A program made the translations under genes and the position numbers. A DNA stretch of 64,000 nucleotides from a virus. Its lineage: Duplodnaviria > Caudoviricetes. The notes under the pieces are model-generated. The model had not been told where the DNA came from and made no database searches. It was given only the letters and a program-made list of their open reading frames with translations. How positions within the stretch are numbered: position 1 is the first letter of the stretch; every line of letters starts with the position of its first letter. The stretch spans positions 106,735-170,734 of IMG/VR virus record IMGVR_UViG_3300028887_000075; one strand, given 5' to 3'. Shown piece after piece: positions 3 to 60,290 of the stretch.

Positions 3-326
3 TGGGATAATTCCGGCAACACCTGCGATGGGTGGCTACTTGCGTATATTCCCGGGCGAGATAAGCCAGCCATATCAAAACGGCATGTCTGGGTTCACTG
101 TGCCATACTCCCTCCTCCCCGCATTGCGACCAACCGCGAACTGCAGGCATGGTGCGCCCAGGGAAAGGGACAGGTACACTACTCCGGGGCAGTCAACGTC
201 CACTCGTTCTATTCCTACCAGAACGAGGAGGACGACACCCTGGTTACAAAGGATATTTCCGTGCGCAAGTGGGGGGATACCGTCTGGCACGAACCTACGA
301 CCGAATACCTGGGACTTACTGAATGA
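3..326 (+). CDS. hypothetical phage protein, 5'-truncated by window edge
   Basis: Open frame not in the ORF track (WDNSGNTCDGW...RIATNRELQAWCAQGKG...WHEPTTEYLGLTE*); its TGA overlaps the next ATG (ATGA). Confidence 0.7.
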   Translation, partial: WDNSGNTCDGWLLAYIPGRDKPAISKRHVWVHCAILPPPRIATNRELQAWCAQGKGQVHYSGAVNVHSFYSYQNEEDDTLVTKDISVRKWGDTVWHEPTTEYLGLTE

Positions 327-658
327 GCAATCCCGAGTCCATAGACTGGAAGGAAGTCCGCCGGAGAATCGCGGAGACTCCCGTCATCGTCCCTCCCGGT
401 CCCTCCCGGAAATCCCTGGAGAGGCGCCGTAGGAGAGACCGGGAGCGGTGGCGGAAGTACTACAAAGAGAACCCCGAGCACTGCCACGCCAGGCAGAAGG
501 AATGGGAACTGGCGAACCCGGAGAAGGTGAAGGCCAAGAGGCAACGGTGCTACGAGAAAATGAAGCAGGACCCGGTACGCCTCGAGAGGAAGCGCCAGAG
601 GAACCGGGAGTACAAGGCAAGGAAAAGACTTGAGAAACTGACCGCACAGGCGGCATAG
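323..658 (+). CDS. basic Arg/Lys-rich hypothetical protein
   Basis: 111 aa ORF coupled to the upstream gene; helical RK-rich repeats (YYKENPE, WELANPEKVK). Confidence 0.7.
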   Translation: MSNPESIDWKEVRRRIAETPVIVPPGPSRKSLERRRRRDRERWRKYYKENPEHCHARQKEWELANPEKVKAKRQRCYEKMKQDPVRLERKRQRNREYKARKRLEKLTAQAA

Positions 659-7047: not shown

Positions 7048-7326
7048 ATGGCCACTCAGAAAAAGACACCCAAAAAGACCCTGGACGACGCCATCAAGGC
7101 GCTATCCAAGGCAAAGACCAAGAAACAAATTTCGAAGTGCGCCGGTGAAGTCATAAAGCTGGCCGAGGAGAAGCCCGAACGGACGAGGACCAGCCCGAAG
7201 TATTCCCGCTTCATAAAGGCCACCCCCGACCTGAAGGGCAGGCTCGTCACCAGGTTCTACGTGGACAGGACCCTCGACTTCTATGTCACCGATGTGAACT
7301 ACCGCCGCCCTTTAGGGCGGCGGTAG
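7048..7326 (+). CDS. basic hypothetical protein; C-terminus supplied by an IS-end palindrome
   Basis: 92 aa; the last codons (VNYRRPLGRR*) lie inside the 7292-7333 palindrome. Confidence 0.55.
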   Translation: MATQKKTPKKTLDDAIKALSKAKTKKQISKCAGEVIKLAEEKPERTRTSPKYSRFIKATPDLKGRLVTRFYVDRTLDFYVTDVNYRRPLGRR

Positions 7327-7333
7327 TTCACAT
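7292..7333. repeat. perfect inverted repeat built from IS200/IS605-type right-end sequence
   Basis: ATGTGAACTACCGCCGCCCT-tt-AGGGCGGCGGTAGTTCACAT with 20-bp arms; same core as 9499-9560 and 33810-33870. Confidence 0.85.
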
Positions 7334-7453: not shown

Positions 7454-8542
7454 ATGTACAGGGGAATATACAACCTCCGCTCCGCAGACGACAACATTAT
7501 ACTCACCGCCGAGCAACTAGAAGAAAGCATCAAGTGCTCCAAGGACCCGGTGTACTTTTTCAGGAACTACTGCTATATACACAATGCGAGACAGGGACTG
7601 CACCTGTTCCAGCCACGACCCAGACAGCTGGCAGAAATCCCGGTGCTTTCATCGGAGAAGATGGTCAAGTCCGACTGGTACCGGCAATCCGGATATACCA
7701 CGCTGGTACTGGCGCTCATGCTATGGAAGGCGATGTTCACCGCAAATACCGCATGCCTATACATGATACCCAAGAAGGAACTGGCATACGAAAACTTCAA
7801 CGAGAAGGTCCGCCAGATGTACCTCGCGCTCCCTGAATGGCTACAGACGGGAGTCAAGGAATGGACGCACGAGAGGATAAGGCTAGCAAACGGTAGCATT
7901 TTCTGTGCCAAGGCGGCATCCGCCGACAATGCGGCTGGTATAGGATGGGACTACATATTCATCGACGAGTTTGGCTGGATTAAGGACAAGGCCATGATGG
8001 AAATAGTCAACCGGCTGTTCCCGGTCGCCTGGTCCTCGAAGAAACAGCACCTGATACTGGGCCAGAGCCACCGGTTCGGACGGCAGACACCCGCCAACCT
8101 GCTGTTCTGGCAGAACAACACGCTGCCGTTCCACGTGTCCGAGTTCACATGGGACCAGGATGAGCGGCTGGACGCGAAGTGGGCAGAAGCGGAGAGGCTG
8201 CGTATCGGGGACCGGAACTTCGAGAAGCAATACTGCGGGAAGATAGAGATGAAGGACGACCCGGACGGACTCCCTGAACAGTTCGGCAGGTGGACCGTAT
8301 GGGCGGAGGGAAAGTTCCCGGATGTCAAGGAACGCTCCGGAGGAAGATACATTTGTACTGTAGCAATGTTCAGCCGGTCCACCGGCCTGCCGGTAGGCAC
8401 ACCGCATATAGATGTGCTGGCCGCGGATGGCAACGGCGTGTTCCACGGGCTGTTCAGCGACGACGGGACATACGAGAAGGTAGTCGCATGGATGCCAGCA
8501 CCGGAGATACCCGGGGAAGTCCGGGAGATTTACGGGGAGTGA
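7454..8542 (+). CDS. degenerate terminase-large-subunit ATPase domain (gp17-like) fused to a DUF551-like tail
   Basis: KCSKDPVYF..NYCYI, RQSGYTT (Walker A K replaced by Y), IRLANGS, IFIDEFGW; no RNase H nuclease domain; C-terminal VVAWMPAPE. Confidence 0.7.
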   Translation: MYRGIYNLRSADDNIILTAEQLEESIKCSKDPVYFFRNYCYIHNARQGLHLFQPRPRQLAEIPVLSSEKMVKSDWYRQSGYTTLVLALMLWKAMFTANTACLYMIPKKELAYENFNEKVRQMYLALPEWLQTGVKEWTHERIRLANGSIFCAKAASADNAAGIGWDYIFIDEFGWIKDKAMMEIVNRLFPVAWSSKKQHLILGQSHRFGRQTPANLLFWQNNTLPFHVSEFTWDQDERLDAKWAEAERLRIGDRNFEKQYCGKIEMKDDPDGLPEQFGRWTVWAEGKFPDVKERSGGRYICTVAMFSRSTGLPVGTPHIDVLAADGNGVFHGLFSDDGTYEKVVAWMPAPEIPGEVREIYGE

Positions 8543-8576: not shown

Positions 8577-9122
8577 CTATATCCGGCAGTAAGAGTTGAC
8601 GAACTCCCTTATCGTATTTACCGTGGAGGAACCGTTGTCGAAATCGCAGCATATGCTTTCGTCCCCTTCTCCGGTGTACTTGACGTGCTTAACGCTCCAT
8701 CCCGTAGGACCGTAAAGGTCATAACCCAAGGCGGACTCTGTGATTCTGAGCGATTCCTTAAGTACATTCCTGTATTGCATGACGCCATAGTTCTCCTTGC
8801 AGAATATCTCTATGGTGGGCGAGCCTGCCGTGAAGGTCACCGAGAAAGAGTACGGGGTGCCGTCGGGAGTGCGCTCATCCCGGCGTATCCGGCAAATCTG
8901 CTCCATGAAGTTGTCCACCGCGATGGCTACCAGGGAATGCCTGGCATCGGCTTCGATAGCGGCGATTGCCTCCAGCGAGTCCAGCCTCGTCCTGTACTCA
9001 TGGATTGCCTTGTCCTTCACCTCGGAAAGCTGCTCCGGGCTGATAGGAGTGGGGTATACTTTCAGGTTGCCGTCGTCGAACTTGACCTCGAAACTTAGTC
9101 CTCCGTCTAGCGTTATCCTCAT
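8577..9122 (-). CDS. hypothetical protein
   Basis: 181 aa, AGGAG RBS, class I promoter at 9154-9166. Confidence 0.7.
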   Translation of the reverse strand: MRITLDGGLSFEVKFDDGNLKVYPTPISPEQLSEVKDKAIHEYRTRLDSLEAIAAIEADARHSLVAIAVDNFMEQICRIRRDERTPDGTPYSFSVTFTAGSPTIEIFCKENYGVMQYRNVLKESLRITESALGYDLYGPTGWSVKHVKYTGEGDESICCDFDNGSSTVNTIREFVNSYCRI

Positions 9123-9301
9123 GTGGCGCTCCTTTGCTTATGCGCTATATGGGCAAATATAGCAAATTCCGGCGGGGAGCACCGGGAGGCTTGCCTGCCG
9201 GTACCGGGTCAACCGGGAGGGCCCTAGGTGGTACGCGGGGTATACCGGGGGAGAGTACTGGTTCATAGTGTACAATATTAGTAATCAATATTTTACAATT
9301 A

Positions 9302-9560
9302 TCGGCGGGAAAGATGCCACCCTTCAGGGTGGCATATGAGAGCCGACGAAAAAATAGAAAAAGAACTTGCATTTTTGAAACTGTTAAACTATATTAGGAA
9401 CTGTCAGGCCGAAGGACACTAAATATGCGGGTACCTCCGGAACGGAGGAAACTTATGATGGTGGACTGGTGGACCTATATATCCAAACCTATTCTGGAAC
9501 GGACAAGTTCGCTGGGTTGAAACCAGAAGCTGCCGCCCTTTAGGGCGGTCTGTAGTTCAC
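9302..9560 (+). mobile_element. non-autonomous IS200/IS605-family mini-element (left hairpin, promoter, omega-RNA-like segment, right end; no tnpA/tnpB)
   Basis: Left hairpin ATGCCACCCT-tc-AGGGTGGCAT nested in TCGGC/GCCGA after TTAT; right end GAAGCTGCCGCCCTTTAGGGCGG..GTAGTTCAC. Confidence 0.7.
9367..9395 (+). promoter_or_regulatory. sigma70-like promoter inside the mini-element
   Basis: TTGCAT-17 nt-TATATT. Confidence 0.55.
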
Positions 9561-9580
9561 ATTGTTGAATGGCTACTATG
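9402..9580 (+). ncRNA. putative stand-alone TnpB omega-RNA (scaffold to 9560, guide from flanking DNA)
   Basis: GTACCTCCGGAACGGAGGAAACTTA...TGGTGGACTGGTGG...TGAAACCAGAAGC-hairpin-GTAGTTCAC resembles the layout of IS1341-type tnpB 3' regions; recognised by eye only. Confidence 0.5.
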
Positions 9581-9868
9581 GAAACGCATCTTATCATGTT
9601 GCGGGATGCCTTCGATGCATCCCGGATTGCCGGAGTAAATGTCCGGGAATTAATTGACGCCGGTATACCTGTCGGTGACATGGATATCGGTTTCGCTACT
9701 TACTTCGACATATGTCCGGGCTGGGAGCCAGGTACCGCCTGGCCAGGAACCTCCATGGACGATGGTTATCCGCTTATTGGGATGATGGTGCATAGCTGTC
9801 CTGCCGGCTATAGCGTTTCACATTCGGTTTTCGACAAGTGGCATTTCTACCTCAGGACAAAGGTTTAA
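9569..9868 (+). CDS. hypothetical protein
   Basis: 99 aa ORF between the mini-element and uvsX. Confidence 0.6.
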   Translation: MATMETHLIMLRDAFDASRIAGVNVRELIDAGIPVGDMDIGFATYFDICPGWEPGTAWPGTSMDDGYPLIGMMVHSCPAGYSVSHSVFDKWHFYLRTKV

Positions 9869-9883
9869 ACAAAGGATAATGTT

Positions 9884-11230
9884 ATGGCTGCAGCAAAGAA
9901 AAAGGGAGCAAACGCGCTTGCGGAGAATCCGTGGGCATTTTTCGATACGGTCGTTACGACCGACAAGTTCGTCGACGCGGGTGTTGACCGCCCGACGTAC
10001 GGTTTCGCAGATTCCGGGAGCTACGCGCTGAACGTGCTTCTTTCCGGCGACGTCTATGGGGGATTCCCCAAGAACAAGGTCGTGCAGACGGCAGGCCTGC
10101 AGGGTTCCGGTAAGTCCCTGCTCGGCAAGTACAACTTCTGCCCACCGCTGTTCAAGGACAACTACTTCATCTACTATATCGATACCGAGAACGAGACCAC
10201 CCGGAAGGACCTCGAGTTTTTCGCATCCTTCCCGTGTCAGCAATTCAAGGTGCTTCACTTCCATACGGTAGAGGATTGCCACCACGGTATCTCCACCATC
10301 CTCAAGCAGCTCGAAGATTATATGGAGAAGAACAAGACGCTCATCAACCCGCACAAGGTTGCTTTCGTCCTTGACTCCCAGGGCATGCTGTCCACCGCCA
10401 AGAACATCACCGACGTGCTCAAGGGTGACGACAAGACCGACCTTACCAAGGCAAAGAAGCTCTCTGCGATGTACCGTGACCTTACCTTCCGTCTTGGTGA
10501 ACTCGGTGCCCCGATGTATGTCACCAACCACATGTACCTTGACCCGAACGCGGCCACCACCCATACCGAGACCAAGAAGGTCGCCGGTGGCGAAGGCGCC
10601 AAGTATTCTGCTTCCATCATCCTGTCCGTCTACAAGATTACCGAGCGTGTCGACAGCGGAAAGAAGGATGACTACGGCAACAAGGTCAAGGAGGTCCAGG
10701 GTATCTTCATCCAGGTCGGTAACATCAAGAACCGCCTTGTCCATGAAGGACTTAGCACCCGTCTCTACCTGAGCTACAAGAATGGTCTCAGCCGCTACTA
10801 CGGTCTCCATGTCTGGGCGCAGGAAGCCGGTCTCATCGTTCCCTACACCAAGCAGGCCGACTGGCCTGGCCTGGAACTTCCGAGGAACCCCGACGGTTCC
10901 ACCTTCCTCGGCAAGAAGTGGGTTATCTGTGACCCGCGCAAGCCCCGTACGGAATGGCTGGTCGCTCCGGAGAACAAGATTCATTCCGCCAAGTATATCG
11001 GTACGATTCTTGACCCGATTAACGACTATGTAAAGGCCAAGTACAAGAACCAGAAGATTGGCGTGTTCGGCGACGAGGATACCGAGCAGGCTACCGAGGA
11101 TGAGCTTGCCAACGTAGACGAGGCCGCGCTCGACCAGGCAGACGCCGAACAGAACAGCCGGTTCATCCGGGAGGCTGCCCAGAAGGCGGAGGCCCTCGGG
11201 CTGGTCGCAGAAGGCTCCGCCGAAGACTAA
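9884..11230 (+). CDS. uvsX: RecA-like recombinase (UvsX)
   Basis: DSGSYALNVLLSGDVYGG, Walker A GLQGSGKS, YIDTE, VLDS, VTNH, AGGEGAKYSAS. Confidence 0.92.
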   Translation: MAAAKKKGANALAENPWAFFDTVVTTDKFVDAGVDRPTYGFADSGSYALNVLLSGDVYGGFPKNKVVQTAGLQGSGKSLLGKYNFCPPLFKDNYFIYYIDTENETTRKDLEFFASFPCQQFKVLHFHTVEDCHHGISTILKQLEDYMEKNKTLINPHKVAFVLDSQGMLSTAKNITDVLKGDDKTDLTKAKKLSAMYRDLTFRLGELGAPMYVTNHMYLDPNAATTHTETKKVAGGEGAKYSASIILSVYKITERVDSGKKDDYGNKVKEVQGIFIQVGNIKNRLVHEGLSTRLYLSYKNGLSRYYGLHVWAQEAGLIVPYTKQADWPGLELPRNPDGSTFLGKKWVICDPRKPRTEWLVAPENKIHSAKYIGTILDPINDYVKAKYKNQKIGVFGDEDTEQATEDELANVDEAALDQADAEQNSRFIREAAQKAEALGLVAEGSAED

Positions 11231-11241
11231 TTAAAAAAGTT

Positions 11242-11282
11242 GAAGACCGGCCCCTCTCCGGGTCGGTCTTTTGCTATATTTG
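11242..11282 (+). terminator. terminator hairpin whose U-tract runs into a class I promoter
   Basis: AAGACCGGCCC..GGGTCGGTCTT followed by TTGCTATATTTG. Confidence 0.75.
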
Positions 11283-11311
11283 GGAACGAACGAACTCGGA
11301 TTTTGACTGCT

Positions 11312-12949
11312 ATGGAAAATTTGCAAAATCCTACGTTCGCGCAGCCTGTTCCGGCGATGCAACCGGGGTATCCCCCGGTAATGCAACCGCCACCTCCGCA
11401 GCAGCTACCGGTAGCTCCCGGTGGCTACATGCAGCCCCAGCAGCAGGTATATGCGTTAACGCGGGAAGACTTGGTAATTAGGGTATTCTTCCAGGATTCG
11501 GTAGTGGGACCAAAGCTACGCGATTCCCTGCGTGCGGAACTGTTCCAGGACGTGAACAACCGCAACATCGTGGAAATTATCCGGAAGTACATGCATAAGC
11601 ATGGTCGTGTACCAACGGCACAGGAACTTATCACCGGCATGGGGGCGAACGACTACGCCATACAGGCCCGTGACAAGCTGATATTCATCTACAACACACC
11701 CATCCAGACGATGCATCAGGACTACGTGGTTCTGATGGTTGAGTCCTTCTTCAAGGAACGTCTGGCCGAGGAGGTGTTGGTGTCTGCCGCGGAGCAGATT
11801 CACGACAAGAAGGTTGATGGGATACGTGACCTCATCCCGCGTTTGCAGGCTGCAGTCACGTACAGCCTGCATACCGACCTGGGTCTCAACCTCTATTCGG
11901 ATGCGGATACGGCACTGGCGAAATTGCGCGAGCAGAAACAGTGCATCCCCTCCGGTATCAATGAGATACGATACTACACTGGTCGCCCGGGACTTGACGG
12001 AGTCATGGTCGGGGGCGGATACTACCGCAAGACGCTTTCCCTGTTCGTCGGGCAGCCCAACATAGGTAAGTCCCTTGTCCTCTGCTCGGAGGCGGCATAC
12101 GCATACAAGAGCGGGTTCAATGTCCTCTACATAACCCTGGAACTTGCCGAGGACTATGTGTGGCAGCGTCTCGCGGCCAACATATGCGAGGTGGACTTCT
12201 ATTCGGTGATGAGCCTTACCGGTGACGAGGTCAGGAAGAAGATTGACGAGAATGTCGCCAGGTTCTCCGCTACCGGCGCCCGTCCGGGACAGCTCCAGGT
12301 TCGCTACATGAAGACCACGACCACCCCGGTGGAAATCGAGGCGGTCATCGACTCGTTCGAGATTGCTCACGGTAAGTTGGATTTGCTGGTCGTTGACTAT
12401 ATCGGTATCATGAAGCCGGCGAGCCGTGGCAGGGTCTCGGAGTCAAGCATGTACCAGGACGGTGTCGCCAAGGCCGAACAGCTTCGCGATATCGCCATCG
12501 AGAGGAACTTCGCCTGCCTTTCCGCAGTGCAGTTCAACCGTTCCGGCTACCACAATACCGAGGCGGGCATCGAGTCGGTCGAGGGTTCTTCCGGTTACGC
12601 CGAGACTTCCGACCTGATGATTTCGCTGACGGCGAACGACGTGCTCCGAAGCATGGCGATGTTCAGCCACTATATCCTCAAGTCCCGCCTCGGACCGGCG
12701 CTCGTTACCTTCCTTACACGGTGCGACTTCAAGCAGATGCGCTGGTTCAGCCCGAGTAAGGAGGAGGTCAATGCATACAACACGGCTGCCGCCGAGGCGG
12801 AACCGCAGATGAACGCTCCCCAGAGGAACGGACAGAAGGGACAGCCGAAGCGTGCGGTAAGCAAGCCGGCAGAACCCCAGGCCCTCCCGGAGGCTACCGG
12901 GGAGACCCAGGAGGCCGTCAAGGTAGAGACCGTGGCGGACTACGTATGA
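11312..12949 (+). CDS. replicative DnaB-like helicase (T4 gp41-like)
   Basis: GQPNIGKS, VLYITLEL, LLVVDYIGIM, SAVQFNRSG, LKSR; Q/P-rich N-terminus. Confidence 0.92.
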   Translation: MENLQNPTFAQPVPAMQPGYPPVMQPPPPQQLPVAPGGYMQPQQQVYALTREDLVIRVFFQDSVVGPKLRDSLRAELFQDVNNRNIVEIIRKYMHKHGRVPTAQELITGMGANDYAIQARDKLIFIYNTPIQTMHQDYVVLMVESFFKERLAEEVLVSAAEQIHDKKVDGIRDLIPRLQAAVTYSLHTDLGLNLYSDADTALAKLREQKQCIPSGINEIRYYTGRPGLDGVMVGGGYYRKTLSLFVGQPNIGKSLVLCSEAAYAYKSGFNVLYITLELAEDYVWQRLAANICEVDFYSVMSLTGDEVRKKIDENVARFSATGARPGQLQVRYMKTTTTPVEIEAVIDSFEIAHGKLDLLVVDYIGIMKPASRGRVSESSMYQDGVAKAEQLRDIAIERNFACLSAVQFNRSGYHNTEAGIESVEGSSGYAETSDLMISLTANDVLRSMAMFSHYILKSRLGPALVTFLTRCDFKQMRWFSPSKEEVNAYNTAAAEAEPQMNAPQRNGQKGQPKRAVSKPAEPQALPEATGETQEAVKVETVADYV

Positions 12950-33809: not shown

Positions 33810-33870
33810 ACGGACAAGTCCGCTGGGGTGACGCGCGAAGCTGCCACCCTTTAGGGTGGCGGTAGTTCAC
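33810..33870 (+). mobile_element. solo IS200/IS605-type right end / omega-RNA 3' portion
   Basis: ACGGACAAGTCCGCTGGGGTGA..GAAGCTGCCACCCTTTAGGGTGGCGGTAGTTCAC aligns with 9499-9560. Confidence 0.75.
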
Positions 33871-33951
33871 ATATGAAAGTTTTTGCTATATTTGTGGAAA
33901 AAGACACCTATAGAATAGGTTATAGTATAACTGTTCAAATAGTGGATACTG

Positions 33952-56347: not shown

Positions 56348-58197
56348 TGGCCGCACGTACCTGTGAAGAAGTCCTGATGGGGCTGAATTTCGCCGAGGAC
56401 GGCACCACTGGCAAGAAAGTGACCCGTTCAAGTTCGCAGCAGGGTGACTCTGGGGATTTCCTTGACGCAGTAATCAAGGAGGCCGGGAACATACGTACCG
56501 CCGCGATGGGATTGTATGAGTATGATTGCTCCGAACACCTTCTGGAATGGCTGTATAGCGCATGTCCGGCACTCAAGACGGCAAGCAAGGACATAGACCG
56601 GATTTCCAAGAATATCGGCTCGATAACTTCCGGCATCAAGCTGGGTGAGCTTATCCAGGGAAACGACTTTACCAAGGAATTTTGCAACCTGGTAGTCACC
56701 GTGTTCGGCTCGGTGAACGCTTTCCTCGAGGTAATATCGAAGGCAGCGTTTGCCTTGTTTGACAAGATTGACACTGCTAGGGAGAAGCTGCAACAGTCCT
56801 TGAAACTGCTTACCGATGCCGTACAGGAATGCATCCTGGACGTGTACGACATGATTGACAAGTACCTTGGTGGATTGCTGAAGGTGACCCTGAATTGGAA
56901 CTGGGAGGCTCTGGAAAAACTTCTTATTGACTGCCCGTGCATCTGCCGGTTCGTATCGTATGTTACCGGGTGCGACAGGGATGAGGACGGCAACAGCATT
57001 TCGGACCAACCGGACCTGGTAATCCGTTGTATCCGCGACAAGTTCTGGTACATGGACGGAATCAACCTCGCTACGGGACTGTCCGCCATAATGGATACCT
57101 ATATCAAGCAGTATGTAATCCTATTCTTCGACATGATTAAGCTCTCCCTGGACAGCTTCTTTACCGTCCTGGTGATGCCGCTCCGCTGGTTAATCAAGCA
57201 GTATGCTGACCTCCTCCGCAAGAAGATGGACGTGTCGTTCCTGCTGGAGCCACTTAGGACCTCCCACATGGACTGCCTGCTGGTATATACCAGGGAGGAA
57301 GTTGATGGCAAGATGGAATACCGTATGAGCGTGCTAGACATGATGGAGAGCATGAAGATGTGGGTGAACTGCCTCGAACATGCATGCCCGGCACTCACCG
57401 AGCGCATCAAGAACAAGGTCAAGCAGTACAACGAGGAATTCAGACTATCAGGAGAATACTGGAACCGTGCGTTCGAGGCCGACATCTACTTGTGCTGCAT
57501 GAGGGCGGATTCCGCCTACGAGAACGGATATTCCCTAGAGGACCTGGCAAATATGTGGGACGACCTGTTTGACCGCCTCCGTGCGGCAAATGACCGGGTA
57601 AAGAGCAAGGTGTACAAGGCAAAGTGGACCTATGGCCTATACCCGTCAAGCACCGGCGGCATACAGTACTATACCGAGGACATGCGGGGTGAGCCCGAGA
57701 CTGGGTCCGTAGGAGAGGCGGCTGCCTCCGCGGTGACTGCCGTACAGTTCGCCGGTTCAATCGACAACGAGAACAACCTGCAACCCGGTATCTACCCGTT
57801 GAGCGACCGGGAGGACCGGGAGCTCCGTTCCATGGGACTGTCTCTTGCCGACGGCATGAGGGAGGACGCTTACTTCGGCGAGAAGTGGGCCCAGTTCATC
57901 AGGTTCCTGGGATTCTACGCGTTCTCCGACGAGACGCTTAATGCGCTAAAAGAGGCCAGCGAGAAGGGTTCGACGTCTACCGGTGCTTCCCGGGAGGGAA
58001 GCGGTATACAGGTACGGGTAATCACCGTGAGGGAACCTGTGGAGGACGACGAGGAATCGTCCGACGTGAACTACTGGGTAGATTCTGACTACGACCAGGG
58101 AAACGTTGATGCCATATCCAACATAGAGTGGACCGAGCGCAGGTCCAACGAGAGCCTGGCGGCATATTACGCGAGAATGTATTCCACGGCGGTGTGA
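56347..58197 (+). CDS. Cys-rich helical hypothetical protein in baseplate cluster
   Basis: 616 aa, coupled to the gp5-like gene. Confidence 0.7.
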   Translation: MAARTCEEVLMGLNFAEDGTTGKKVTRSSSQQGDSGDFLDAVIKEAGNIRTAAMGLYEYDCSEHLLEWLYSACPALKTASKDIDRISKNIGSITSGIKLGELIQGNDFTKEFCNLVVTVFGSVNAFLEVISKAAFALFDKIDTAREKLQQSLKLLTDAVQECILDVYDMIDKYLGGLLKVTLNWNWEALEKLLIDCPCICRFVSYVTGCDRDEDGNSISDQPDLVIRCIRDKFWYMDGINLATGLSAIMDTYIKQYVILFFDMIKLSLDSFFTVLVMPLRWLIKQYADLLRKKMDVSFLLEPLRTSHMDCLLVYTREEVDGKMEYRMSVLDMMESMKMWVNCLEHACPALTERIKNKVKQYNEEFRLSGEYWNRAFEADIYLCCMRADSAYENGYSLEDLANMWDDLFDRLRAANDRVKSKVYKAKWTYGLYPSSTGGIQYYTEDMRGEPETGSVGEAAASAVTAVQFAGSIDNENNLQPGIYPLSDREDRELRSMGLSLADGMREDAYFGEKWAQFIRFLGFYAFSDETLNALKEASEKGSTSTGASREGSGIQVRVITVREPVEDDEESSDVNYWVDSDYDQGNVDAISNIEWTERRSNESLAAYYARMYSTAV

Positions 58198-58298
58198 TAT
58201 CATTTCAACATAAATATAGCAAATAATTCGCTAATAGCGTATAATAAATGCAAAAAACTGGCATAGTTTCATTACCAGAAACATATAAACGGTAATAT

Positions 58299-58922
58299 AT
58301 GAAGCAGAGAATGAAGCTATCGAAGTACGCGAAGCAACTTGGTTGCAGTTACCAGAGTGCCCTGAAGAAATTCCACAAGGGACTCATACCGGGAGCCTAC
58401 CAGGAGAAGGATACCGGGTCAATCTATGTGGAGGACCCGGACGTTGACCCTACCAGGGAGCGGCCGGAACGTACTTGCATATACTGCCGTGTCAGCAACC
58501 AAAGCCGGAGGAAGGAACTTGAGTACCAGGTCAAGCGCTGCCAGGACTTCTGTGCGACTAACGGGTTCAAGGTAGACGGCGTGTACAAGGAAGTCGCCAG
58601 CGGGATGAACGACAGTCGCAACCAGTTCTGGCGGATGATGTCGTCGCGTCCGACACGCATAGTGGTCGAGAACAAGGACCGTCTTACCAGGTTCGGATTC
58701 GAATATATCGACAAGCTGTACGCCGACCGTGGAGAAATCATAGTGATGAATCCCAACGACAACGACGAGCACGACCTGATGCAGGACATGATTTCGATAG
58801 TAACCAGTTTCTGCTGCCGGCTGTACGGCATGCGCCGGGCAAAGAACAAGCTCGACCGTATCAAGAAGGCGCTCGAAGATGAAGGAAAGGATGAAGGAAA
58901 GGATGAAGGAAAGGTAGAATGA
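58299..58922 (+). CDS. tnpA: IS607 serine recombinase TnpA
   Basis: N-terminal HTH, IYCRVS, EVASGMND.R, VENKDRLTRFGF, DLMQD..SIVTSFC.RLYG.R. Confidence 0.95.
   Translation: MKQRMKLSKYAKQLGCSYQSALKKFHKGLIPGAYQEKDTGSIYVEDPDVDPTRERPERTCIYCRVSNQSRRKELEYQVKRCQDFCATNGFKVDGVYKEVASGMNDSRNQFWRMMSSRPTRIVVENKDRLTRFGFEYIDKLYADRGEIIVMNPNDNDEHDLMQDMISIVTSFCCRLYGMRRAKNKLDRIKKALEDEGKDEGKDEGKVE
58878..58914. repeat. 12-bp tandem repeat x3 at the tnpA 3' end
   Basis: GATGAAGGAAAG three times (DEGK x3). Confidence 0.9.
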
Positions 58923-60259
58923 TGCCCACAGTTCCCGAGACATACGTACGCAGTACGGCGCACAGCCTGAAGTTCGCCAATGCAGGCAAGCGAGATGCCG
59001 TGGCCGACTTCCTTACGGAATACAGGAAGGCGGTCGGTGTGTACGTAGACGTCCTGTGGAACTGTCCAAGGGAATGGAATCCGGGCAAGATTCTCGACGT
59101 ATATCACGACTACCTGGACGTGCCGTCGATGATAAGCACGGCCGATATACCCATAGAGACAAGACTGAGCGCACGCGCACTGAAGTGCGCGGCTACGCAG
59201 GCATGCGGAATAGTGAAATCTGCGCTTAGACGAAGGCAGAAGGACCTGCTCGTGCAGGCGAAATGCCGCGAGGAAGGAAAGGATATTCCCAAGAGAGCAA
59301 GGTACAGGCTAGAGCATCCTCCATCAATGCCTAGAACTGAGAAGGCCAATGCCGAGATAAATTCAATCTGCTGTTCCATCCAGGATGCGAAGCATACTTC
59401 ATTCGCCATGTGGGTTGACCTGAAATCATTGTTCAGGGAGGACAAGTACGGTCGCGGGTTCCATGTACAGGTTCCTATAAAGAGAACCCGCATGGACGAC
59501 AAGTGGAGCAGCGGCGAGCACGAAGTGCTCCCTTCCATATTGCTGTCTGATGATACAATACACATAAGGTACCGGAGACCGGTTCCACAATGCAAAGGAA
59601 CTAGGGAGGTCGGCCTGGACCAGGGAGTCAGGAAGATGCTGACCGCATCGGACAGCACCGATATTCCCGACCTAGGCCACGGATATCAAAATATACTACG
59701 AAAGATTGCCAGGAAGAAGCGGGGTAGCAAGTCATACCGGCGTGCACTACAGGAACGCGAGGACTACGTATTCCGCACAATAAAGCAGGTGGACTGGTCC
59801 GTATACAGCCTAATCAACCTGGAAAGACATTTCGATACGAAACGGGGAAAGAACAACGGCAGGCTGCTGACGGCTTTCTCCAACCCGCAAATCCGCAACG
59901 CGCTCTACATGCGGGCTTCCGAGGAGATGGGCGTCCCTATCCAGGAAGTCGACAACGTATGCAACTCGCTGCGGTGTCCTATGGACGGCTGGGTTCACGT
60001 CAGGAACAGGCCCCGAAAGGGTGTCCTGTTCCGCTGCATAAAGTGCGGATACGTCGACAACGCGGACGAGGTTGGCGCAATAAACGCCAACCTCCACGCA
60101 GACGGACTGCCGCCGTGCAGCCATGAGCTCGTATTCAGAAGGAAGCTACATAAATCGTCCGGGTTCTTCTGGACGAAGGAAGGCTTCTTCGATGAAAAAG
60201 GGGATGTAATCCCCGTGGCAGGGAGTTCACAGTTCCCTGTAGGCAATAATAATGGGTAA
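58919..60259 (+). CDS. tnpB: RNA-guided nuclease TnpB
   Basis: RuvC-I VGLDQG, RuvC-II INLE, zinc finger CPMDG/CIKCG, RuvC-III NADEVGAIN. Confidence 0.9.
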   Translation: MMPTVPETYVRSTAHSLKFANAGKRDAVADFLTEYRKAVGVYVDVLWNCPREWNPGKILDVYHDYLDVPSMISTADIPIETRLSARALKCAATQACGIVKSALRRRQKDLLVQAKCREEGKDIPKRARYRLEHPPSMPRTEKANAEINSICCSIQDAKHTSFAMWVDLKSLFREDKYGRGFHVQVPIKRTRMDDKWSSGEHEVLPSILLSDDTIHIRYRRPVPQCKGTREVGLDQGVRKMLTASDSTDIPDLGHGYQNILRKIARKKRGSKSYRRALQEREDYVFRTIKQVDWSVYSLINLERHFDTKRGKNNGRLLTAFSNPQIRNALYMRASEEMGVPIQEVDNVCNSLRCPMDGWVHVRNRPRKGVLFRCIKCGYVDNADEVGAINANLHADGLPPCSHELVFRRKLHKSSGFFWTKEGFFDEKGDVIPVAGSSQFPVGNNNG

Positions 60260-60290
60260 TCATTTTATATGATTACTTGTAACTGTAGAT

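What the first reader, a model, noticed from the sequence alone, without database searches (positions are those of the whole stretch)
9299..9580. Promoter-equipped, TnpB-less omega-RNA unit: a candidate trans-acting guide RNA gene in a phage
Seen: a ~260-bp non-coding element with a left hairpin after TTAT, a TTGCAT-17-TATATT promoter, ~160 nt of structured-looking sequence and a right end ...GCCGCCCTTTAGGGCGG..GTAGTTCAC, with no protein gene. Known: in IS200/IS605 elements the tnpB 3' region plus right end forms the omega-RNA scaffold, and flanking DNA supplies the guide. Inference: tnpB was deleted while promoter and scaffold were kept, giving a guide RNA (guide about ATTGTTGAATGGCTACTATG) usable by a TnpB encoded elsewhere, e.g. 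to cut related phages lacking the insert or to regulate transcription. It sits just upstream of the replication module.
Basis: partly seen in the sequence, partly recalled or inferred. Interest (0 to 1): 0.75.

Follow-up and report, generated by a model that had tools for sequence, protein, structure and literature searches.

The report
Gene-less IS605 mini-element carrying TnpB guide RNA
This 264-base stretch in a cattle-rumen phage is a protein-less miniature jumping element that keeps only its two ends, the promoter of the lost nuclease gene and the guide-RNA scaffold of the RNA-guided nuclease TnpB; a full-size parent-type element with TnpA and TnpB lies 22 kb away, so this is a clean new example of an element type already described.

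Summary
Window 9297-9560 is an ORF-less IS200/IS605-family mini-element of the PATE type. It has a left-end hairpin, a conserved TTGCAT-N17-TATATT box pair, about 130 nt homologous to the 3' end of a tnpB gene, and a right-end hairpin that ends in GTAGTTCAC.

The same virus record holds a full-length element 21.7 kb upstream. It carries a Y1 tnpA and a 425-aa tnpB with an intact RuvC triad, and it has homologous ends, the same promoter boxes and a guide-RNA (omega) region 78% identical to the mini's.

- **Model match:** a covariance model built only from tnpB-linked copies hits the mini at 66 bits (E about 7e-19). Rfam has no match.
- **Other copies:** the mini occurs at two other insertion sites in other rumen phage contigs, and contig ends in rumen metagenomes show further flanks.
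- **Insert-free relative:** one contig reads TTAC followed directly by the predicted guide sequence.

Expression and TnpB loading are not shown. The element's promoter may also drive the downstream recombination/replication genes. PATEs that encode omega RNAs used in trans were already proposed (Meers et al. 2023), and this scan has noted similar elements in other phages and archaea. Verdict: a new member of a known kind.

The parts
9293..9296 (+). TTAC target / transposon-adjacent motif directly 5' of the left end
   Evidence: TTAC precedes the left end in the window copy, the full-length copy of the same record, L006-L008, L013, L021/L023 and L022. L009 has TGAC. It also precedes most of the alternative left flanks seen in metagenome contigs.
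9297..9350 (+). Left end (LE) with subterminal hairpin (9314-9322 / 9327-9335) and an outer pairing at 9303-9306 / 9342-9345
   Evidence: Homologous to the LE of the full-length element and of L006-L009. 49/54 identical to L013.
9367..9395 (+). Promoter boxes TTGCAT (9367-9372), 17-nt spacer, TATATT (9390-9395), inherited from the tnpB promoter of full-length elements
   Evidence: The same boxes at the same spacing lie upstream of tnpB in the full-length copy and in L006-L009, and they are conserved in all minis while the spacer varies. The same promoter type sits upstream of the orthologous 99-aa gene in insert-free relatives. The generic sigma-70 scan does not call it.
9396..9430 (+). Leader between promoter and omega scaffold; possibly a remnant of the first tnpB codons. 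The predicted transcription start near 9402 is inferred only.
   Evidence: Conserved 26/28 among minis. Only weak similarity to the tnpB 5' end.
9431..9560 (+). Omega-RNA scaffold and right end (RE): stem 1 at 9434-9439 / 9443-9448, RE hairpin at 9532-9538 / 9543-9549, terminal GTAGTTCAC at 9552-9560
   Evidence: 78% identical to the last 131 nt of the tnpB element of the same record. A covariance model built from five tnpB-linked copies hits 9418-9560 at 66.3 bits, E 6.9e-19. Compensatory changes occur in stem 1, an internal stem and the RE hairpin.
9561..9580 (+). Predicted guide (first 16-20 nt of flanking DNA); it overlaps the start codon (9569) of the 99-aa ORF
   Evidence: Homology among all copies stops right after GTAGTTCAC, and the flanks differ. 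An insert-free contig in run X23 reads TTAC followed by this sequence, with no differences listed up to 9636. No second target lies in the 170-kb record.
9569..9868 (+). Downstream 99-aa ORF of unknown function, first gene before the UvsX-like recombinase (9884-11230) and the DnaB-like helicase (11240-12949). It is context, not part of the element.
   Evidence: ORF list, Pfam and PHROG hits, homologues upstream of uvsX in L016, L018 and L019.
33812..33870 (+). Solo right-end fragment identical to the end of the full-length element of the same record (100% over the 60-nt match, window 33812-33871, which includes one flanking base)
   Evidence: blastn of the full element against the record, sequence view, covariance-model hit at 39 bits.
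7296..7332 (.). Perfect 17-bp-stem palindrome made of the RE hairpin plus the GTAGTTCAC terminus and its inverted copy
   Evidence: 25.7 bits.

Best explanation
Window 9297-9560 is a non-autonomous, protein-less IS200/IS605-family element of the PATE type. It arose from a tnpA/tnpB element by internal deletion.

What it keeps:
- the left and right ends that the Y1 transposase TnpA needs;
- the tnpB promoter boxes;
- the roughly 130-nt omega-RNA scaffold that normally overlaps the 3' end of tnpB.

Inferred mechanism:
1. TnpA supplied in trans peels the element out and pastes it 3' of TTAC sites.
2. The retained promoter transcribes the scaffold plus the adjacent flank.
3. TnpB, made by a full-length element such as the one 21.7 kb upstream in this record, loads this RNA.
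4. TnpB then cuts TTAC-plus-guide sites, meaning insert-free copies of the locus in sister or co-infecting phages.
5. Recombinational repair copies the element in or restores it.

Shown here: anatomy, homology, multi-site distribution, the TTAC rule, the presence of a related intact TnpB and TnpA, and an insert-free TTAC-plus-guide site. Inferred only: transcription, processing, loading onto a TnpB whose own scaffold is 78% identical, and cleavage.
For: - A full-length element lies in the same record at C1:92420-94284. Its tnpA matches Y1_Tnp (E 1.6e-30) and its 425-aa tnpB matches OrfB_IS605 plus the TNB domain.
- The TnpB aligns with solved TnpB structures, and the three RuvC acidic motifs are in place.
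- The mini aligns to that element at the LE, at the promoter boxes and over the last 131 nt (78%).
- Four IMG/VR elements whose TnpB is 87-91% identical share the same LE, promoter boxes and RE terminus.
- Further minis of the same architecture lie at different sites: L013, L022, and L021/L023. Several alternative flanks appear in rumen metagenomes, and the mini unitig has about 2.4 times the depth of its flanks.
- A covariance model built from tnpB-linked copies only scores the mini at 66 bits and the other minis at about 80 bits.
- Compensatory base changes occur in three helices.
- An insert-free junction reads TTAC followed by the guide.
- Meers et al. 2023 (PMC10055086) state that PATEs often encode omega RNAs that must be used in trans by TnpB.
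Against: - There is no evidence of RNA from the element. The only RNA-library contig laid covers an insert-free relative of the downstream gene.
- Rfam has no match.
- The single-sequence fold is no better than shuffles (z = -1.0).
- No tnpB-linked copy with the mini-type scaffold was found in IMG/VR. The nearest is 78-80% identical, so compatibility with the resident TnpB is unproven.
- The 85%-complete record that carries the L013 mini has no close TnpB; its best is 37% identical.
- Part of the covariation lies in the RE hairpin, which TnpA also needs as DNA. In full-length copies the region is also coding.
- The linkage of this copy's left and right flanks may be an assembly join across a repeat.
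Confidence: 0.7

Rival explanations
1. The mini acts mainly as a mobile or co-opted promoter. It supplies the promoter for the downstream 99-aa / UvsX / DnaB gene block, and the omega scaffold is merely a structured 5' leader. This does not exclude the guide-RNA reading.
For: - Insert-free relatives (L016, L018/L019, and the X23 contig) have a native TTGC(A/T)T-N17-TATATT-type promoter directly upstream of the orthologous gene.
- The mini sits right after that promoter's -10 region and carries a look-alike promoter.
- In the window no other such box pair lies in 9123-9296.
- The RE hairpin has no T-run, so read-through is expected.
- All mini copies are co-oriented with their downstream genes or tRNAs.
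Against: - Promoter activity is not shown, and the generic scan does not call the promoter.
- Co-orientation is also expected from the strand-specific insertion of IS200/IS605 elements.
- The promoter alone does not explain 92-94% conservation of the 130-nt scaffold among minis at unrelated sites, or the model match.
Confidence: 0.35
2. It is an inert, decaying miniature element. It may be moved by TnpA, but its RNA is not made or not used by any TnpB.
For: - There is no expression data.
- The scaffold is 22% diverged from the only TnpB-linked scaffold in the record.
- G001 carries a mini without a close TnpB.
- Decayed relatives exist in the same record: a solo 60-nt RE fragment and a palindrome.
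- L022 has lost its LE hairpin.
Against: - The promoter boxes and scaffold are conserved across copies at unrelated sites, while spacer and flanks vary.
- The deletion end points leave the promoter boxes and stem 1 of the scaffold intact, with only a 35-nt leader (9396-9430) between them.
- The L022 copy kept the promoter and scaffold after losing the hairpin needed for mobility.
Confidence: 0.2
3. It is a domesticated regulatory guide that works like TldR. The RNA would direct a TnpB-like protein to bind the start region of the 99-aa gene and tune the replication module of the phage's own genome.
For: The guide overlaps the start codon at 9569.
Against: - The related TnpB keeps all three RuvC acidic motifs.
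- The resident target is preceded by TCAC (the RE terminus), not by the TTAC motif seen at all insertion sites.
- The element is multi-copy, with different flanks and hence different guides.
Confidence: 0.03

Closest known systems
PATEs / PATE-like minimal IS200/IS605 elements that encode omega RNAs (Geobacillus stearothermophilus; Meers et al. 2023, PMC10055086; term from Haloquadratum, PMC3119063)
   Same: They have no protein gene. The LE and RE hairpins match those of tnpA/tnpB elements in the same genome. They carry an omega-RNA region at the RE. They are presumed to depend on TnpA and TnpB supplied in trans.
   Different: This one lives in a large rumen phage and recurs in related phage contigs. 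It demonstrably keeps the tnpB promoter boxes of the parent type. It is inserted right after the -10 region of a native phage promoter, in front of a recombination/replication gene block.
IS608 (Helicobacter pylori) and ISDra2 (Deinococcus radiodurans), the reference IS200/IS605 elements with TnpA and TnpB
   Same: The target is TTAC 5' of the LE, as I recall for IS608. There are subterminal hairpins and no target duplication. The omega RNA overlaps the tnpB 3' end and the RE, and the guide is taken from the flank. The TnpB aligns to the solved ISDra2 TnpB (8EXA/8H1J, E 5.6e-9).
   Different: The mini lacks both genes. The full-length relative here has divergently oriented tnpA and tnpB. The scaffold sequence is unrelated to any Rfam family.
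Stand-alone omega-RNA loci and orphan CRISPR arrays used in trans
   Same: The guide-encoding unit is separated from its effector gene.
   Different: This unit is still a bounded transposon with both ends and a target-site rule. It carries one guide fixed by its insertion site, not an array.

Membership tests
IS200/IS605 family, non-autonomous PATE type | Subterminal hairpins at both ends, related to those of a tnpA-bearing element | tested here: met
   The LE hairpin (9314-9335) and RE hairpin (9532-9549) are homologous to the ends of the tnpA/tnpB element at C1:92420-94284 and of L006-L009.
IS200/IS605 family, non-autonomous PATE type | Insertion 3' of a conserved tetra- or pentanucleotide without target-site duplication | tested here: met
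   TTAC precedes the LE at every distinct site but one, which has TGAC. The right flanks are unrelated and show no duplication. An insert-free junction reads TTAC followed by the right flank.
IS200/IS605 family, non-autonomous PATE type | No protein-coding gene | tested here: met
   Only a 31-codon remnant frame at 9425-9520.
IS200/IS605 family, non-autonomous PATE type | Copies at several unrelated sites (mobility), with a Y1 transposase available in trans | tested here: met
   Copies in L013, L022 and L021/L023, plus extra flanks in metagenomes. A Y1_Tnp gene lies in the same record. Actual excision was not tested.
TnpB omega RNA (OMEGA guide RNA) | Scaffold derived from the 3' end of tnpB plus the RE, ending at the transposon boundary | tested here: met
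   78% identical to the tnpB 3' end and RE of the same record. The custom covariance model built from tnpB-linked copies gives 66.3 bits, E 6.9e-19.
TnpB omega RNA (OMEGA guide RNA) | Conserved secondary structure supported by covariation | tested here: inconclusive
   Compensatory pairs occur in stem 1, an internal stem and the RE hairpin. Only 9 related sequences were available, the region is also coding in full-length copies, and the RE hairpin is also a DNA signal. The single-sequence fold has z = -1.0.
TnpB omega RNA (OMEGA guide RNA) | Match to a curated RNA family | tested here: not met
   No Rfam hit at gathering score, and only chance-level hits at E up to 10. Omega RNAs are very diverse, so this weighs little.
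TnpB omega RNA (OMEGA guide RNA) | Transcribed, bound by TnpB and directing cleavage next to the TAM | not testable with these tools
   No RNA data cover the element.
Bacterial sigma-70-type promoter | Two hexamers near consensus at 16-18 nt spacing | tested here: inconclusive
   TTGCAT-17-TATATT matches 8 of 12 positions and is not called by the scan. The boxes are invariant in 8 element copies and recur at orthologous native sites in L016/L018.

The most novel reading that the evidence does not exclude
The mini may have become a dual-purpose phage module. Its promoter would now drive the recombination/replication gene block. The 5' part of the same transcript would be cut out as a guide that lets the phage's TnpB destroy or convert co-infecting sister phages lacking the insert at that same promoter/start region. 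That would make it a guide-RNA-only gene drive and exclusion device among rumen jumbo phages. The elements would also serve as portable recombination points that reshuffle phage genomes.
Probability: 0.15. Interest if true: 0.7.

Novelty: new member of a known kind. Interest (0 to 1): 0.38.

Why it matters
It adds a well-delimited phage example to the idea that TnpB guide RNAs and their nuclease are modular and can live on separate mobile elements. All the pieces needed for a test are in one record: TnpA, TnpB, a full-length element, a guide-only element and a natural insert-free target. If the guide is used in trans during co-infection, this would be RNA-guided homing or exclusion between phages driven by an element that encodes no protein. 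The promoter-replacement and synteny-break observations suggest such minis also rewire and reshuffle phage genomes. The short promoter-plus-scaffold unit is also a compact natural design for expressing TnpB guides.

Tried and rejected
- **Rfam:** the gathering search on the whole window gave no hit, and the permissive search on 9000-9900 gave only chance-level ryfA and HgcC matches driven by the hairpins.
- **INPHARED phage collection:** no match for 9123-9568.
- **Gapped LE-RE pattern in IMG/VR:** six hits, five of them chance matches inside a coding region. Only L013 is real.
- **Exact search for the insert-free site in IMG/VR:** it found only an unrelated coding match, L031, with no TTAC.
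- **TnpB relatives in 185,579 reference prokaryote genomes:** the peptide-pattern search found none, so no host copy was identified and no host is named.
- **Tnpb-linked parent with the mini-type scaffold:** not found in IMG/VR.
- **Second target of the guide inside the 170-kb record:** none with fewer than 4 mismatches over 16 nt, and none preceded by TTAC.
- **Expression:** the single RNA-library run (X23) holds only an insert-free relative of the downstream gene at depth 2.3, and it may be carried-over DNA. It says nothing about transcription of the element.
- **Decayed mini remnant upstream of the L016 homologue:** considered and rejected. The alignment scores no better than shuffles, and the similarity is explained by a native promoter of the same type.
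- **Left flanks of WIN and L013:** they look alike for about 20 nt, but other copies do not share this. I treat it as T-rich target context.

Full report
**What is there.**

The flagged stretch lies in a 446-bp gap between a minus-strand 181-aa ORF (8577-9122) and a plus-strand 99-aa ORF (9569-9868). The 99-aa ORF is followed by a UvsX-like recombinase (phrog_97, E 1.9e-37) and a DnaB-like helicase (phrog_19, E 1.5e-62).

The window is the last 64 kb of a 170,734-bp virus record that CheckV rates 41% complete. Near-identical DNA is held by bovine gut metagenomes.

- the left hairpin, 9314-9322 pairing with 9327-9335;
- TTGCAT at 9367-9372, a 17-nt spacer, and TATATT at 9390-9395;
- the right hairpin, 9532-9538 pairing with 9543-9549;
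- the terminus GTAGTTCAC at 9552-9560.

The only internal ORF is a 31-codon frame at 9425-9520.

**The parent-type element.**

A search of the whole record with 9299-9580 found a second copy of the right 131 nt at 78% identity, at C1:94155-94285. Reading that place shows a complete IS605-type element at C1:92420-94284.
- Its left end is homologous to 9297-9345.
- It has a minus-strand Y1 transposase gene (134 aa, Pfam Y1_Tnp, E 1.6e-30).
- An intergenic region carries TTGCAT-N17-TAAATT.
- It has a 425-aa tnpB (OrfB_IS605 and Cas12f1-like TNB domains). The tnpB reading frame runs through the region homologous to 9431-9549 and stops in the loop of the right-end hairpin.

The TnpB aligns with solved TnpB structures, including ISDra2 TnpB, and the three RuvC acidic motifs are in place.

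A gapped alignment of the mini against this element matches three parts: the LE, the promoter boxes, and the last 131 nt. The mini is therefore what remains when tnpA and almost all of tnpB are removed. The 31-codon ORF is the remnant of the TnpB C-terminal tail frame.

The mini lies 21.7 kb downstream of the full-length element in the record.

**Boundaries and target motif.**

Four IMG/VR elements whose TnpB is 87-91% identical (L006-L009) share three things: the LE, the promoter boxes and the RE terminus.
- In all of them homology starts right after TTAC (TGAC in L009).
- In all of them homology ends at GTAGTTCAC, after which the flanks are unrelated.

The same holds for the other mini copies and for most of the loose contig ends in rumen metagenomes.

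The element is therefore 9297-9560 (264 bp). The guide begins at 9561.

**It is a mobile family.**

A junction-specific pattern found further minis of the same architecture at 89-100% identity:
- L013, in a 185.7-kb IMG/VR record;
- L022, between co-oriented tRNA genes, with its LE hairpin deleted but promoter and scaffold kept;
- L021 and L023, which have the same right flank as the window.

In run X1 the mini unitig has about 2.4 times the depth of the flanks, and two left and two right flanks are seen. Runs X4 and X5 show still other flanks.

Among minis the promoter boxes are invariant while the spacer varies, and the 130-nt scaffold is 92-94% conserved.

**Is the right half an omega RNA?**

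Rfam gives nothing, and a single-sequence fold is unremarkable (z = -1.0).

I built a covariance model from five tnpB-linked copies only. It hits the window mini at 9418-9560 with 66.3 bits (E 6.9e-19) and the other minis at about 80 bits.

The consensus fold of nine sequences has four parts:
- a 5' stem (9434-9439 pairing with 9443-9448);
- a long-range stem enclosing two small stems;
- a short hairpin;
- the RE hairpin, enclosed by a pairing of GAAGC with the terminus.

Compensatory changes occur in the 5' stem, one internal stem and the RE hairpin. This evidence is modest. There are few, related sequences, the region is coding in full-length copies, and the RE hairpin is also a DNA signal for TnpA.

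By position and homology this is the omega-RNA region of this TnpB family. Whether it is expressed and bound is not shown.

**Target of the guide.**

No other TTAC-flanked match to 9561-9576 exists in the record.

A 233-nt contig from a bovine metatranscriptome library (X23) matches 9559-9724 at about 91%. No differences are listed before 9637. Upstream it continues into different sequence, so that the junction reads TTAC followed directly by the guide sequence. This is an insert-free version of the locus with TAM and target intact, which is what a homing guide would cut.

More distant relatives (L016, L018/L019) read TTAT plus a diverged sequence at the same place.

**Two further observations.**

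First, the insert-free relatives have a native TTGC(A/T)T-N17-TATATT-type promoter immediately upstream of the orthologous 99-aa gene. The mini sits right after that promoter's -10 region and brings a look-alike promoter. In the window no other such box pair lies between 9123 and 9296. The mini's promoter may therefore now drive the downstream genes, with the scaffold as 5' leader. I keep this as a non-exclusive rival.

Second, L021 is 99.3% identical to the window from 9293 rightwards, but its left flank is unrelated to the window's. L021's left genes are syntenic with the insert-free relatives L017-L020 and are absent from this record. So the window shows a synteny break exactly at the mini's left end. 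This is either recombination between mini copies or a chimeric assembly join across a 264-bp repeat. None of the alternative flanks is in the record, so I cannot decide.

Both junctions exist in raw contigs: window left flank into the LE, and RE into the 99-aa gene. A mini copy therefore lies 21.7 kb from the tnpB element in any case, and a mini lies in front of the 99-aa gene in any case. Only the pairing of the two flanks on one copy is uncertain.

**Comparison with what is known.**

Meers et al. 2023 (PMC10055086) found PATE-like, gene-less IS200/IS605 elements in Geobacillus. They state that PATEs often encode omega RNAs that must be acted on in trans by TnpB of other elements. TnpB is also described as frequently phage-encoded (PMC12607003).

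Earlier notes of this scan describe similar guide-only minis in another rumen jumbo phage, in a 422-kb phage and in Asgard archaea. I did not test those.

The present element passes the structural membership tests for a PATE of the IS200/IS605 family and for a TnpB omega-RNA region. The functional tests could not be run. It is a new member of a known kind.

Its particular points of interest are these:
- the complete set of parts in one phage record;
- a natural insert-free target;
- the retained tnpB promoter placed in front of a replication/recombination gene block;
- the coincidence with a synteny break.

**Verdict.**

Interest is moderate to low at 0.38.

Noticed in passing
window 9293 (left end of the mini), compared with L021/L023: Synteny break exactly at the element boundary. 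L021 is 99.3% identical to the right of 9293 but has a different left flank, which is syntenic with insert-free relatives. This is either recombination between mini copies or a chimeric assembly join across the 264-bp repeat.
   Followed up: partly
window 33812-33870: Solo right-end fragment identical to the end of the full-length element (100% over the 60-nt match, 33812-33871). It lies after a small ORF and just upstream of a TTGCTATATTTG motif.
   Followed up: partly
window 7296-7332: Perfect palindrome with a 17-bp stem, built from the right-end hairpin plus the GTAGTTCAC terminus and its inverted copy. It lies at the 3' end of ORF 7048-7326, upstream of the terminase N-terminal half (7454-8542).
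   Followed up: no
window about 58900-60260 (C1:166652-166819 is the TNB-domain hit): A second, unrelated tnpB (446-aa frame) with a different 3' end and hairpins. It is not the cognate of the mini. An 84-nt regulatory-looking repeat at 58192-58275 ends in TTAC and is 93% identical to the left flank of the mini in L021/L023.
   Followed up: partly
window 9154-9165 (minus strand) and near 33884 (plus strand): The motif TTGCTATATTTG, which contains a TAnnTTTG-like box, points into adjacent genes. It is probably the phage's common promoter type and hints at a Bacteroidota-like host transcription signal. This is inference only.
   Followed up: no
window 7454-8542: The terminase large-subunit homology covers only the N-terminal ATPase part (362 aa). 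No nuclease half was identified next to it.
   Followed up: no
L022 (Ga0129307_1027807), 293-560 minus strand: This mini copy sits inside a co-oriented phage tRNA array (Tyr, Phe | mini | Leu, Ser, Arg). Its left-end hairpin is deleted, but the promoter and omega scaffold are intact.
   Followed up: partly
L024 and L028 (record G001, which also holds L013): TnpB genes that are only 26-37% identical to the query still end in a near-identical right end: GAAGCT or CAAGCT, then a hairpin, then GTAGTTCAC (L024) or GTAGTTGAC (L028). The last roughly 35 nt of the scaffold is therefore conserved across distant TnpB subfamilies.
   Followed up: no
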